Source: Tubiluchus corallicola (Eukaryota; Animalia; Priapulida). From it: a stretch of DNA of 64,000 nt. This document shows positions 27,001 to 33,000 of the stretch, piece after piece. Within the stretch, counting starts at the first letter, position 1. Every line of letters begins with the position of its first letter. Made by a program: the position numbers and the translations under genes. The stretch is from assembly GCA_030141605.1 (NCBI GenBank), contig JAQGDQ010000005.1, positions 620,180-684,179 on the forward strand. The letters run 5' to 3'. Below the pieces are notes generated by a model that was not told the origin of the DNA, ran no database searches, and worked only from the letters and a program-made list of their open reading frames with translations.

Positions 27001-30000
27001 TTTTAACATAACACCACTTTTGGTAAGAACAAATTTGGTATGGAGCTCAATTATACTATATAATAATAATAGCATTTTCAAGTATTTGGTCTTGTGATGT
27101 TGACCCTTAACCTTACGACCGAAAATCTACAATTCTCTTTATCTATTTATGGATGACTTATAAATGAAAGATGAAAGCTTGGGGTCAATTAGAGGGTTAA
27201 AATGCATACACAAGCTTTTTCAAGTATTGTGTCCCGTGACCCTGACTTTTGACCTTGGGGTCTCAAAATTGATAAGGCTTTTCGTCTTTTGATGAGTAAC
27301 ATATACGTAAAAGAGAGCTTTGGGTCAGACAGTTTGGTTTGAAATTTATCCATATATTGTGGGGGAGATGGAAGGATGAAAGAATATACAGACAGATGCA
27401 AGAACTTCGGCATTACTATATACTCTCTTACAAGGAAATTGCAAAGGGAAAATGAATTGAATATGGGCAAAAGAAATTCTCCGCACATCATGGTTTCATT
27501 GATGGATATCATTCTGAAATCATATGGAAATAAAAATCTCAGTCAGGGTAGACTCTATCTCATGCAAGAACTTTATCGAAAATTTCAAATACAGACTAAA
27601 TGTACCTTACATGATCAATACAACCTTTAAAACAGTATATTTTGTTTTTATCTCAACATACTTTCGTATTCTTGTATCCCTCCGCAAACATTAAAACCTC
27701 AACAATCATGGTCGTATCGGGTGCTACCATTGCGATCGGTCGAAACATCGACCTCAAATTATCAGGCAAATCAGCATTGTCTGTCATGGCTGTAATAAGT
27801 AAGAGGATATTCTTTAGCTTGTACAAAAAAATAGGATGGAATAAGCTGGGAAATGTGATATTTTTTGTTTAATGCATATTAGTTGAGAGATAATAACAGA
27901 AAAGACAGATATCATTGCAAACTTGACGAATGGTGTCCAAATGGTTTCCTATGTTAGGAAAATGTTACTGGTCAGTTATTCTTTCACAATACACTTTCAT
28001 TATACACAAAATGTTGTGAATAATCATGGCTGTGAATTTCTGTTTAACAAAACTTCAATACACTTTTCAAGTCCAGGAAAGTAAATACATACCTCATGCT
28101 TAAATGGAATATAGTTTCGTTTTGTTTTTGCTAAATACTAAATTAACGTGGTTTGTTCTTCCTTTCTTTCACTAAAAACTGATTCACGTACTGATCCCCG
28201 CTCACAATATAAAATAAGATGCACTGCATTCACCTTACAATATTAAAGAATACATTAAAAAACTTTGAAGAATTCTAATCTTCAAATTTTCAACGGTTAA
28301 TTCCAAAAGCTAAAAGAATCAGCTAAGCTGAATTGATGTGTGACGTCAGTCTGCCTTGTGCATCAAGCCACAATGTTCACTCGATATCATAAAAGAACAA
28401 AATTACAGGCGTGGTTTATTACGTGCATTTAAAAGCGTGTAATTTTCTACAGTCTTCCCATATGAACAGGCAGCTCCATGACTCTGATCTCAATCAAGTA
28501 CCACTTGCCAATGGAACTAGCCTTTACTACTCTGGCTGGAAGTTTGTTCCATATCCTGATTGTTCGAGGGTAGAAGGAATATGCGTACTGGTAGCATGAA
28601 TGGGTGACTAAGGAGGATGGTATAAAGCAAGCAGGAAAGGATATAGTCATCAATAAATGCTGAATTTTATAGAACATTGTGGCTTGGTGGAGCAACTGTC
28701 TATTCTCCAAATTGTCCCACCTTAGTTGCTGAAGCTGTGATGTCACTATGCCATCCTCTCTACAATATTCATTTTTAACAAAACGAGCTGTTTGGTATTG
28801 AACCTTCTCCAAGTTGGTGATATTACGTTGGGAATAGAGTATTAATGCTCCATTTACAGCAAGCATATTCTAGCCTAGGTCTAACTAAGGTGTGATAAGC
28901 ATTCTCTTTTACTTCCTCAGAACTGTCAGTAATCGCTTTTCCTAGTAGGCCCAAAGTGCTATTACTTTTAGATTTCATCTTATCTCAGTGGTCAATCCAG
29001 TTGAGATTTTGATCTATTGTAACTCCGAGATATTAATCGGAACTGACCTTTGTTGGTGCATCTGCAACTGTACACTGGAAGGAGCTTGGTTTCTGTTTAT
29101 TGGTAATATGTAGAATGCAGCACTTAGTAGGGTTGAACTGTATAAGCCAGTCCCTAGAACAATGATGGAGTTTCTCTAAATCATCTTGCAAATGAATATG
29201 ATCTTGAATACTATGATGTGAATACTATCATTGGCGAAAAGTCTAAGTTGAGATGATATGTTTGCGCTAATGACTTTGATATATAGAAGGAATAAAACTG
29301 GGCCCAGGACAGAGCCATGCCCCACTTCTGACGATACTGGATCAGGAAAACTTACTTCCATTGAGAGATACTGTTTGAGTTTGACCAAGAAGGAAACCAG
29401 ATATCCAAGCTGCAGTCCTTCCACGAATGTCATAATAATGGAGCTTTTGAAGAAATCTACATTGTGGCACAGTGTCAAAAGCTTTGCTGAAGTCCAGCAG
29501 TACAACATTTGTTTAGCTGTGATTGTTTAGAGTAGATGCCCAGTCTTAAACTGCAGTAATTAATGGCATTTCACATGATGACTTCTGTCTAAAACCATGC
29601 TGAAGAGGTGATAATATACTGTGATGTGAAACACATTTCATGATGTGACTCAAAATGATATGCTCCATTATCTTGCACAAAATGCATGTCAGGGAGAGAG
29701 GTCTACAATTTCCAGGCAATAACTTTTCACTCTTCTTGTAAACAGCTGTTACCAATGCTTGCTTCCAGGCAGAAAGAAGAACTCCCATATCAAATGTGGA
29801 AAGCAAATGGTGGTGCCAACTCGGTGGTTGTTGTCTTAAACATCTTTGCTGATACCTCACCAGGACTGCAAGCTGTGGAAGGAGTGATCTGAGACAATTG
29901 TTTAGCTACCCCTTCAATTCCATCGGCATGTCCTCAACTGCTAGATATGGTGACTTACCCATATCTCGAATGTTGCTGGTATTTTTGTTTGTGAAAACTG

Positions 30001-33000
30001 ATTTGAACCACTCATTCAAAAACTCTGTCTTTCCTAAATCTGATGTGAAAATTTTGTACCATCTTTTAATGAAGACACACCTAACTTTTCAGTCGTCTTT
30101 AGTTTACTATATGACCAAAACTTTTTGGGGTGGAGTCTAAGCTTTTTCCAATGATATTGTTTAAATAAGTCATGATGAAACTGTCGTTGAAGTTGATTTA
30201 CTATGTTGAGTTGAACCTTGTAAGATTGGAAGAGTTGGTTGTTGCATAGAGTTGGTTGCCTTTGCTTTCTTATGGAGCCTGTTTCGTTTTCTCATTTCTC
30301 TTTTGATAGCCTGCGTGATCCATGAGAGGTCTTCCCTAGACTTTGTCATCCTAGTAGGGACATGGTTTTATCTCCACATTTGTAATTAGCGAAGCATTTA
30401 TTAAGAGTTCCCAGAAAGCTTTGAATTAAAACACGTTTATTATGGAGGTTGCTATAAGAAATATATTCATGCACTCAACTTTTTGCCATTAACAGACTTT
30501 TAGTAGTGTCTGTTAGGTTTGTTATAACTGACACAGCTAACGTATGAGAAATGGTAATTTTGACAGTTGGTGCTAATCATAAAAGAAAACAAGATTTGAA
30601 AATTGTAAAATCTTACCGGGATGCATAGTAACAAATATTCCACAAGACCATACTAATTTGATTTCTTGTCCTTCAAAGATAAACTTTGTAGCTGCTGCTG
30701 ATAATGCAGAGAGTATGGATAAGATCTGTTGAGCAACAACTGACAAAACTTCCACGTTGATCATGTTGAATTCATCAAAGCAACCCCACGCACCAGTCTG
30801 TAGTGCAATAATATTAATGTACAGACAATAGACAAAAAAGACAATAAACTGCATTTAGTACTGCTTTAACCACATATGCCTTAAGCAAGATACCAATACC
30901 CTAATAACAGTAACTGGATTGACACAATAAATGTATACAAACAAACAATTGTTTCATTTGCTTACTGAAGAAAGAGACATCAAAATGTGAAAGTTATCCA
31001 AGCCAGTTTTAATAGCAAACAATCTAACAGAATGTCGAAACACTTTGACATTACATGTATGTGATTAATAATGCATTGAAATGATCACAGTGAATCAGTG
31101 ACAAGAACTAATTAAAATTCGGGTTCTCACCTGAGCTAAACCAGAGTACATTTTTCCCATGGATTTATAATCAAGCCCTTCAGAACAATTGATAACAATG
31201 ACGTACATCCCCAAAGCCTTGCCCAAATCTTTTGTAGTTTCTGTTTTTCCAGTACCAGCTGGTCCTTTAGGACATCCACCACGGTGAAGATGCAGTGCTG
31301 TTGTCAAGGTGATGTAACATCTGAAACAATTTAGAAAATTCTTAACAGCATCATAGTGACAATGGTCATGGCAGTTGTTGTCCAAGTCATCGTCATCATC
31401 TTCATCTTCAACTCATCATAACATCACTATCACCATCTTAAACTGACCATTCTGACTGTTGTTATGGTCATCGTCAACTCATTGGTAACATCATTATAAT
31501 CTTCATCACAATTTACAAAAAAAGAATAACATAACCGTAAATTGCCTCTAAAAATTGTAGAAACTCATTTAATTCCTGTTCTTATATATAGAACAACTTA
31601 CGATATTTTGTGATTGTCTTCCAGTGAAACCTAAAATCAATATCTTTTCTCAATGAAAGCTTTAATATAGGTTTTCCTGCTAGCCAATTATTAGTGTATG
31701 ATTAAATGTCTCTGTACTTATTATGGGCACATCTTGCACCCAAAGTGCTTTTGTTTCAATCATTTAAGGCTGCATAAAACAAGCTTCTTTTTTGCCTGAC
31801 ACCAACTTATAGAATTAACATGGAAAAATGTGGTAATGAAAGCAACTAACTCCATCTGTGCCAAAGCCCTTCTTGTGAATGTGATGCATTTTGTCTGAAA
31901 TCGGCAAATATTGACTAACCAAGTAAGGATTCATACTCTCTATGAGCCTTTCAGACATGAGGCTCATATTCTTCTTGTGTGGAAATACTGAACAGTCACA
32001 ATGCATGACTAGTAGCCGAAGTTAGGCAACACCAAGCTTTCCCAGTAAAAAATGGGTGATAATCATGAAAAACGGTCTAGCAGTTTCATCTGCCATACAG
32101 CATTGGGACTACTTAGCTTAGTCAAAGTTATCATCAATGAGATTTTGGCTCTGCCGCATCATCACCATTAACGTGGCCTGACTGAGTGATGAATCCTAAT
32201 TAGCAAGTGAAAAACTATAAGAAAAACTGCCCACAGCAACTATCAAACACAAAGAAGGTAGGTTGCTTAATTTGTGAAACAGCCAAATGATTCTGCATTT
32301 GTGAATGAAAAAATTTATAATGCGGTAAATAAAGGCATGCATTTTTGCTAATATATGCTGCCATAAAATGTTAAAATAACTATACAAAAATTATTGAAAA
32401 AGTTACCTATCCGTAAGTGGTGTGACAACTAGCCTAGGAGAGTTTCCTAAATATTCATAACCGTACTGGAACTGAGTATTTGTTTGCTTGACAATGCAGT
32501 CATCAATGTCCTAAAACAACATGTTTGAAGCTTTGTACATAAAACTAACATTTACTAACATAGTGTAAACTTCATTCTACTTATTTGTGGCTGTCAAAAT
32601 ATAGTGAGGTAGTTGTGCAGTAAACAACAATTACAGCATGCATCAATAATCGCATTCTGTATATAAGAGCATTCATAACTACCTACAGAATTATAATAGT
32701 AAGTTTTAGATAGTAAGGTCTGAAATCTCTGTTACTCCTCATGTTTAATATATGGAATGTCCTACAATAAGAATACTTATTCAAAAAGAACTAATGCAAA
32801 ATGAAGCAGAGAGTGAAATAAGGTGTAGAAAAGTCAATACATTTGCCCCTAATCAAATGGCTCAATTTAGAAAACACAAATCAATAGATATTTGAAAAAC
32901 AACAACGTACATTTCCATTTCAATTACCTTGTCCCAGTAAAAGCGCAACTGACTCAGCCATTCAAAAGATGTAACCTCATTGGTCGAAGTCTTTATCAGT

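What the first reader, a model, noticed from the sequence alone, without database searches (positions are those of the whole stretch)
27760..30630. AAA1 sensor-I motif is destroyed in an otherwise intact DNAH2: candidate pseudo-motor dynein
Seen: exon 38 ends ACT ATG CAT CCC G|gtaag and exon 39 begins ag|CC ATG ACA GAC AAT GCT GAT TTG CCT, giving [20 protein letters not shown]. Known: dynein heavy chains have GIFITMNPGYAGR.ELP.NL here, and the Asn is sensor I of AAA1, the site whose hydrolysis drives the power stroke. Here N becomes H and GYAGR becomes AMTDN with spacing preserved. That needs many substitutions across two exons, so a single base error cannot explain it. Walker A (GPAGTGKT), Walker B DE, sensor II (HYDFGLR) and the AAA2 arginine finger (SRCG) are retained. 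Inference: a chain that may bind but poorly hydrolyse ATP at AAA1, acting as a structural, braking or regulatory inner-arm f/I1 head.
Basis: partly seen in the sequence, partly recalled or inferred. Interest (0 to 1): 0.85.

Follow-up and report, generated by a model that had tools for sequence, protein, structure and literature searches.

The report
Ciliary dynein with broken ATPase loop
In an animal whose gene groups with that of priapulid worms, an intact gene for the cilia motor DNAH2 has lost the otherwise invariant loop of its main ATP-burning site while keeping the ATP-binding residues, so it likely encodes a motor head that binds microtubules and ATP but makes little force.

Summary
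Real, and stronger than first read. The window holds 64 exons (3,138 codons, 63/63 GT-AG introns, no stop) of an inner-arm I1-beta dynein (DNAH2), sister to Priapulus caudatus DNAH2. The 38/39 junction sits at the position and phase seen in other animals, and no alternative exon was found. All these residues are invariant in 120 of 120 DNAH2s, including Priapulus and fast-evolving copies. Walker A/B, glutamate-switch Asn, sensor II and arginine finger are kept. The chain evolves about 3x faster than Priapulus overall, AAA1-large about 14x, the microtubule-binding domain not faster. Changes elsewhere are conservative, so it is not an old pseudogene. Published mutants at equivalent residues cripple dynein, so the head likely binds ATP and microtubules but cycles poorly, as a drag or structural head of dynein f. 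Untested: expression, independent reads over the key codons, biochemistry, and whether a canonical DNAH2 copy exists elsewhere in this genome (Mytilus has such a duplicate). The scan has noted dead-AAA1 dyneins on other DNA before; this one is a near-canonical core-class chain with a focal lesion.

The parts
248..63803 (-). DNAH2 (inner-arm I1/f beta heavy chain) gene, 64 modelled exons, 3,138 codons from the DHC_N1 tail to the MTBD; continues past both window ends
   Evidence: 63/63 introns GT-AG, no stop; 67.5% identical to Priapulus DNAH2
32407..32510 (-). exon 36: AAA1 N-loop ([13 protein letters not shown]), essentially kept
31131..31320 (-). exon 37: AAA1 Walker A GPAGTGKT (Lys codon 31247) and glutamate-switch Asn (31190), both intact
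   Evidence: an X1 contig covers this exon with no listed coding difference
30617..30797 (-). exon 38: Walker B DE kept (30776, 30773); invariant Arg of DEFNR replaced by Met (codon starts 30764); sensor-I Asn replaced by His (codon starts 30623)
27790..30616 (-). intron 38, 2,827 nt, GT-AG, phase 1 at the conserved position; holds decayed retroelement-like sequence and no alternative exon
   Evidence: retroelement identity is by eye and recall, with no Pfam hit for two ORF pieces tested
27662..27789 (-). exon 39: rest of the sensor-I loop, GYAGRTE replaced by AMTDNAD (gate Tyr to Met at 27787), then [11 protein letters not shown] kept
23176..26707 (-). exons 40-41: AAA1 small subdomain; sensor II Arg kept (26626) but SKQDHY is AKEYHY and KDMN..K is KDMT..V; 25 of 87 conserved sites changed vs 12.3 expected
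18582..20020 (-). exons 44-45: AAA2 large subdomain; arginine finger kept (18665); DGPVDT is DGPTDN and VASPAT is VSSPAT (possible AAA1-facing partners, inferred)
248..1096 (-). exons 63-64: most of the microtubule-binding domain, not accelerated (branch 0.102 vs Priapulus 0.120)
   Evidence: domain boundary set by me from motifs

Best explanation
This is an intact, selectively maintained DNAH2 (dynein f beta chain) gene whose AAA1 sensor-I loop and DEFNR arginine have been replaced, so its product likely binds ATP and microtubules but hydrolyses ATP and releases phosphate poorly and would act as a drag or structural head rather than a force producer. Shown: the sequence changes, the open frame, the focal loss of constraint, the retained Walker A/B, sensor II and arginine finger, and the conserved MTBD. 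From the literature: sensor-I Asn positions the attacking water, the loop Tyr gates phosphate release and links it to linker straightening, and the DEFNR Arg joins the AAA1L-AAA2L contact network on ring closure. Inferred: these losses together release the AAA1-AAA2 latch and backdoor while nucleotide binding persists, giving a head that stays bound or diffuses on the doublet and damps sliding, or that holds the alpha head and IC138 complex in place. I put about 60% on this being a duplicate beside an unseen canonical DNAH2 and about 40% on it being the only copy; neither was tested.
For: Junction and motif. N, P, G, Y, A, G, R of the loop and the DEFNR Arg are each 120/120 in full-length DNAH2s. 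All 201 stored proteins of at least 1,000 aa with GPAGTGKT are canonical (194 by regex, 7 Mytilus copies checked by eye). Priapulus, Babylonia (branch 0.48), the Mytilus duplicate (0.35), Trichoplax and a wasp all keep the motif. Loop divergence from Priapulus is 8 of 9, like the most variable columns (144/206) and unlike invariant ones (123/1101; p=1.6e-7), while N-loop to Walker B differs at only 7 of 92. AAA1-large has 24/160 changes vs 8.0 expected and AAA1-small 25/87 vs 12.3; other domains are 0.83-1.23 of expectation and the MTBD 0.57. Purifying selection: 56% of 96 changes at invariant sites outside the loop are conservative vs 30% neutral (p=1e-7), and about 20 stops were expected under neutrality with 0 seen. 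Loop changes are mostly single-base codon steps, not a frameshift. Literature passages read: yeast Y1902A is defective in ATPase and 84% diffusive (10.1101/2024.05.01.592044); human R1962C gives no gliding and stays bound (10.1101/092791); DNAHX with an altered sensor-I loop is ATP-trapped (PMC11785096).
Against: No expression evidence and no independent reads over the His, Met or AMTDN codons. Walker B Glu, arginine finger and sensor II are all kept, which is what a still-hydrolysing site needs. His could still hydrogen-bond water or phosphate (inference), and I found no experimental Asn-to-His dynein mutant (listing only). Yeast R1852V is much milder than R1852C, whose defect is partly a disulfide artefact (PMC6733598), so Arg-to-Met may be mild. 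The Mytilus duplicate also shows AAA1-large excess (15/159 vs 6.9) with catalytic motifs intact, so domain-level excess alone does not prove a dead site. MTBD conservation is not significant by itself (p=0.067, p=0.13). Regions were chosen after seeing the data and sites treated as independent. No second species with the lesion was found. In Chlamydomonas the 1-beta head is the active one and 1-alpha the proposed brake (PMC3031465 Discussion). AAA5, AAA6 and the C-terminus lie outside the window and could be broken.
Confidence: 0.55

Rival explanations
1. Re-tuned but working motor: His replaces Asn as sensor I and a new loop, with matching changes on the AAA2 face, gives a slower or differently gated cycle that still produces force.
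For: Walker A, Walker B DE, glutamate-switch Asn, sensor II Arg, arginine finger, AAA3 and AAA4 motifs are all kept; loop length and Pro are preserved; linker and stalk show no excess change; AAA2 changes DGPVDT to DGPTDN and VASPAT to VSSPAT could be compensatory.
Against: The loop has diverged like an unconstrained segment. The aromatic gate residue is lost, and only an aromatic substitute (Y1902F) worked in yeast. None of 201 long stored dyneins uses another loop.
Confidence: 0.22
2. A redundant duplicate in slow decay: after a DNAH2 duplication this copy is drifting under relaxed selection, or has recently become a pseudogene, and the loop change has no function.
For: About 3x acceleration in all domains but the MTBD; DNAH2 duplicates with long branches exist (two Mytilus clusters, 72% identical); no RNA holder was listed (not evidence either way); a quarter of the gene is unseen.
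Against: No stop or frameshift in 3,138 codons, 63 canonical introns, conservative changes. About 10 nucleotide changes in 7 adjacent codons beside untouched LPDNL and Walker A point to long, site-specific release, not general decay.
Confidence: 0.18
3. Artefact: assembly error, a wrong splice call or a hidden alternative exon restores the canonical motif.
For: Run X1 does not cover the key codons; earlier unchecked notes describe mutually exclusive exons elsewhere in this genome.
Against: At least 12 base changes in two exons 2.8 kb apart with no indel; no second exon copy; conserved intron position; X1 contigs match neighbouring sequence at about 99%. The His and Met codons lie inside exon 38, so an alternative exon 39 would not repair them.
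Confidence: 0.04

Closest known systems
DNAH2 / IAD-1beta (DHC6 of Kollmar 2016); nearest sequence Priapulus caudatus XP_014680873.1 (P0395)
   Same: Sister branch with support 1.0 with or without AAA1, 63 exclusively shared residues vs at most 28 for 13 other taxa; same domain order, near-identical length, largest insertion 7 aa.
   Different: Priapulus and all other sampled DNAH2s keep DEFNR and NPGYAGRTE; this chain does not, and its branch is about 3x longer.
DNAHX / dynein-X (PMC11785096; parts 1-3 of 7 read)
   Same: Intact heavy chain with an altered AAA1 sensor-I loop (Pro and Tyr replaced there) and Walker B kept; proposed non-motile and ATP-trapped.
   Different: DNAHX derives from the outer-arm alpha chain, is over 5,200 aa, has stalk, MTBD and AAA4S insertions and altered Walker A and sensor II, and is predicted not to bind microtubules. 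This chain is I1-beta, has no such insertions in the part seen, keeps Walker A, sensor II and the MTBD, and loses the Asn itself.
DNHD1 (orphan dynein; as described in PMC11785096)
   Same: Poorly conserved AAA1, proposed non-motile role in cilia.
   Different: DNHD1 lacks Walker B and is highly diverged; this chain is 62-67% identical to canonical DNAH2.
Mytilus second DNAH2 (XP_071165421.1 cluster, P0411)
   Same: Long-branch DNAH2 with excess change in AAA1-large; a model for a duplicate origin.
   Different: It keeps DEFNR and NPGYAGR; its changes hit the N-loop.
Engineered or disease mutants: yeast dynein Y1902A, human DYNC1H1 R1962C, yeast R1852C/V
   Same: Same positions as Y1835M and R1785M here (position matched by motif spacing).
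   Different: Single changes in cytoplasmic dynein with other substituting residues; here both positions, the Asn and six more loop residues are changed together in an axonemal chain.

Membership tests
DNAH2 / IAD-1beta | Groups with DNAH2 and is closer to it than to other dynein classes | tested here: met
   Best PDB hits are DNAH2 (4e-27 vs 1.5e-18 for DNAH6 and 2e-14 for DNAH10); sister to Priapulus DNAH2. The trees held only DNAH2-class sequences.
DNAH2 / IAD-1beta | Tail-linker-AAA1-4-stalk-MTBD architecture in an open frame | tested here: met
   AAA5, AAA6 and the C-terminus are outside the window
DNAH2 / IAD-1beta | Complete AAA1 catalytic set including sensor-I Asn | tested here: not met
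   Asn to His, Tyr to Met, DEFNR Arg to Met
DNAH2 / IAD-1beta | Single-copy orthologue assembling with DNAH10 into dynein f | not testable with these tools
   No genome held; the paralogue scan in run X1 lacked power
DNAHX | Descent from the outer-arm alpha chain | tested here: not met
   DNAH5 is the weakest of the 60 shown PDB hits; DNAH2 placement
DNAHX | Insertions in stalk, MTBD and AAA4S; altered Walker A and sensor II | tested here: not met
   Only a 7-aa insertion in AAA2 and small indels in the part seen; Walker A and sensor II intact
Non-motile (pseudo-motor) dynein, functional kind | AAA1 catalytic motif degenerate in a selectively maintained chain | tested here: met
Non-motile (pseudo-motor) dynein, functional kind | No ATP-driven motility; expressed protein | not testable with these tools
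   No RNA holder listed; no assay or model of the spliced domain possible

The most novel reading that the evidence does not exclude
This is the animal's only DNAH2, so its inner-arm dynein f carries a beta head that binds ATP and microtubules but cannot make a power stroke: a natural conversion of a core, normally single-copy axonemal motor into a brake or scaffold through loss of the sensor-I backdoor loop alone.
Probability: 0.22. Interest if true: 0.8.

Novelty: new variant of a known kind. Interest (0 to 1): 0.52.

Why it matters
Described non-motile dyneins (DNAHX, DNHD1) are old, heavily remodelled orphans. This chain is still 62-67% identical to working DNAH2 and has lost mainly one element, the sensor-I/backdoor loop plus the DEFNR arginine, so it would be a natural experiment on that element and an early stage in the making of a pseudo-motor. 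The changes can be grafted into yeast dynein or Chlamydomonas 1-beta to test the phosphate-backdoor model and to ask whether dynein f needs an active beta head or only a bound one. If it proves to be a decaying duplicate, the interest is small.

Tried and rejected
No genome was held, so a second DNAH2 copy could not be sought directly. Sequencing runs: no RNA holder listed. X2 (RNA is a guess) laid 0 contigs on exons 35-38, which is no evidence on expression. X1 covers exon 37 and ends at 30764, one base short of the diagnostic Met base, and has no cover at 30300-30703. Laying X1 at 80% likeness showed no contig of a canonical DNAH2 on exon 37, but coverage is patchy (0.38 of words) and other dyneins' P-loop exons were not caught either, so this is inconclusive. 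Relatives with the same lesion were not found among the best 120 of 1,293 proteins of 106-2,000 aa, the best 150 of 861 representatives (top identity 66%), or 80 of 519 metagenome loci (68 parsed, all canonical; 12 unparsed, 6 of them seen canonical by eye). Full-length relatives could only be searched with other species' proteins, and a second priapulid copy as diverged as this one would probably fall below the listing cut, so its absence is not shown. An alignment of window exons on a scaffold protein misaligned and was dropped. The Atlas gave no answer. No structure was predicted: AAA1 is spread over six exons and the folding tool takes contiguous sequence only. dN/dS was not computed because no orthologous DNA was available. 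A compensated frameshift was rejected since most loop codons are one base from a canonical codon. A-to-I editing cannot turn CAT into AAT (established knowledge). Paper searches for a described DNAH2 with a dead AAA1 or for priapulid dyneins found none (listings only); subscription papers are not searched. Two supplementary files of PMC5100056 had no priapulid or Mytilus entry, and its file 1 could not be searched; its dynein inventories may bear on copy number.
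Full report
Observation. The minus strand shows the claimed junction exactly: the exon at 30797-30617 ends ACT ATG CAT CCC G|gtaag, and the next begins at 27789 with ag|CC ATG ACA GAC AAT GCT GAT TTG CCT. Exon 38 alone matches DNAH2 best among solved structures. I modelled the gene by scoring all GT/GC-AG pairs near each exon end against seven DNAH2 proteins, and corrected one acceptor by hand. 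The result is 64 exons, 63 of 63 introns GT-AG and 3,138 codons without a stop; candidate junctions with stops were excluded by construction, but the exon cores were open and lengths match the references. The gene fills the window and runs off both ends, so the N-terminus, AAA5, AAA6 and the C-terminus are unseen.

Is the junction right? It scores best and its splice sites are average for this gene (ranks 32 and 28 of 63). In 7 of 17 inspected metagenome loci the homologous intron lies at the same codon and phase, and the next exon starts with 2 nt and YAGRTELP in the same register; the other 10 lack the intron. No alternative exon 38 or 39 was found in the window. DNA run X1 matches neighbouring sequence closely but does not cover the key codons, and no RNA run covers the gene, so neither the bases nor the splicing have independent support.

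What is changed. Walker A Lys/Thr, the glutamate-switch Asn, Walker B DE, sensor II Arg, the AAA2 arginine finger and the AAA3/AAA4 motifs are kept. In the first protein search 118 of 118 detected motifs read MNPG, four Walker B matches having none detected. All 201 stored proteins of 1,000 aa or more with GPAGTGKT are canonical. Of 150 representatives, 120 matched my canonical pattern; the 30 others were mostly other dynein classes or ORFs starting in introns, a few had altered loops of their own, and none resembled this one.

Focal, not general decay. Overall 104 of 1,017 invariant sites differ. Eight of ten consecutive ones fall in the loop, and 4 of 20,000 shuffles reach that. The 96 changes outside the loop are conservative (56% positive BLOSUM vs 30% expected from random point changes, p=1e-7), and about 20 stops would be expected under neutrality against 0 seen. 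Most loop codons are one base from a canonical codon; Tyr-to-Met needs three and Arg-to-Asn two. That fits slow accumulation of point changes rather than a frameshift or a read error.

Lineage. The nearest protein is Priapulus caudatus DNAH2 (67.5% identity; sister with support 1.0, with or without AAA1, and not drawn to long-branch insects or a flatworm). Priapulus keeps the canonical motifs, so the change arose after that split. The trees are FastTree runs on DNAH2-class sequences only, and their deep nodes are unresolved. Branch lengths on a fixed tree are 0.436 vs 0.147 overall, 0.218 vs 0.016 in AAA1-large, 0.729 vs 0.113 in AAA1-small and 0.102 vs 0.120 in the MTBD. Against 21 reference taxa, AAA1-large has 24/160 changes vs 8.0 expected and AAA1-small 25/87 vs 12.3; other domains sit at 0.83-1.23 of expectation and the MTBD at 0.57 (p=0.067). 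Without the loop, AAA1-large still has 16 vs about 8 (p=0.01), though at the strict 98% threshold it is no more changed than the rest. The loop differs from Priapulus at 8 of 9 sites, like the most variable columns, while the N-loop to Walker B stretch differs at 7 of 92. Other long-branch DNAH2s keep the loop. Against my reading, the Mytilus duplicate also has AAA1-large excess with catalytic motifs intact, and these tests were chosen after seeing the data.

Mechanism. From passages read: sensor-I Asn positions the attacking water, and the loop swings in to contact AAA2L on ring closure (PMC4879348; PMC4047620). Human N2019 and Y2022 form a phosphate backdoor coupled to linker straightening; yeast Y1902A loses microtubule-stimulated ATPase and 84% of motors diffuse, while Y1902F is normal (10.1101/2024.05.01.592044). 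Human R1962, the DEFNR Arg (yeast R1852), joins the AAA1L-AAA2L contact network, and R1962C gives no gliding and stays bound (10.1101/092791); part of that is a disulfide effect and R1852V is milder (PMC6733598). All three positions are lost here while the phosphate-binding residues remain. I infer a head that binds ATP and microtubules but couples hydrolysis and phosphate release to the stroke poorly, and so acts as drag or scaffold in dynein f (0.55). Rivals are a re-tuned working motor (0.22), a decaying duplicate (0.18) and an artefact (0.04). In Chlamydomonas the beta head is the active one and is needed for normal sliding and its regulation (PMC3031465 Discussion), which makes a dead sole copy costly and a duplicate more plausible.

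Copy number is the main open point. Kollmar 2016 lists IAD-1beta duplication only in Guillardia and the pea aphid (PMC5100056 passages). I found two DNAH2 clusters in five Mytilus species, with adjacent accessions on same-length contigs, which suggests a tandem pair. A canonical neighbour could therefore lie just outside this window. No genome was available to test this.

Comparison and novelty. By descent it is DNAH2, but it fails the catalytic-set test. It is not DNAHX (other parent class, no insertions, Walker A and sensor II intact; PMC11785096), though it probably works like a mild version of it. Earlier notes of this scan report dead-AAA1 dyneins in five other genomes (unchecked, not tested here). 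My paper searches found no described DNAH2 with this lesion. Verdict: a real feature and a new variant of a known kind, interest 0.52; about 0.8 if it is the sole DNAH2.

Noticed in passing
P0411 / P0390 (Mytilus proteins; not in the window): Five Mytilus species carry two DNAH2 genes, probably tandem; the second has a 3.6x longer branch and an altered AAA1 N-loop (YCEYLDSRRL for YEYLGNSGRL) with catalytic motifs intact. It is not in the duplication list of PMC5100056.
   Followed up: partly
P0144 (Babylonia areolata): Long-branch DNAH2-like protein (0.48) with the excess in the tail and a conserved ring; possibly another duplicate or a poor gene model.
   Followed up: partly
P0369, P0341 (unnamed representatives): Short dynein fragments with their own altered sensor-I loops (SRPSYEANS and NPMYSERS); class not determined.
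   Followed up: no
window 21077-21130 (exon 42 end): 7-residue insertion in AAA2 relative to Priapulus, Branchiostoma and Lineus; the donor choice here is less certain.
   Followed up: partly
window 8511-8678 and 6430-6554 (AAA4 exons): AAA4 has 15 of 96 invariant sites changed, including GRQ to GRS in its P-loop, and a 5-residue deletion; not significant against 21 taxa.
   Followed up: partly
window 25140-26090 and 28450-29950: Decayed retroelement-like sequence in introns 40 and 38; RVT_1 hit below cut-off for 25140-25574 only.
   Followed up: partly
window 35270-36380 and 61110-61790: Two 84-87% identical copies of a repeat element, very high depth in run X1.
   Followed up: no
window 14790-16320: Long nested inverted repeat (six arm pairs, 76-86% complementary) in intron 47, like a foldback or MITE element.
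   Followed up: no
window 52040-52620: 48-nt minisatellite, about 10 copies, in intron 14.
   Followed up: no
run X1 contig laid on window 32929-32966: A 588-nt contig matches 38 nt of exon 35 with 7 differences and continues as another dynein exon, DNAH10-like by recall.
   Followed up: no
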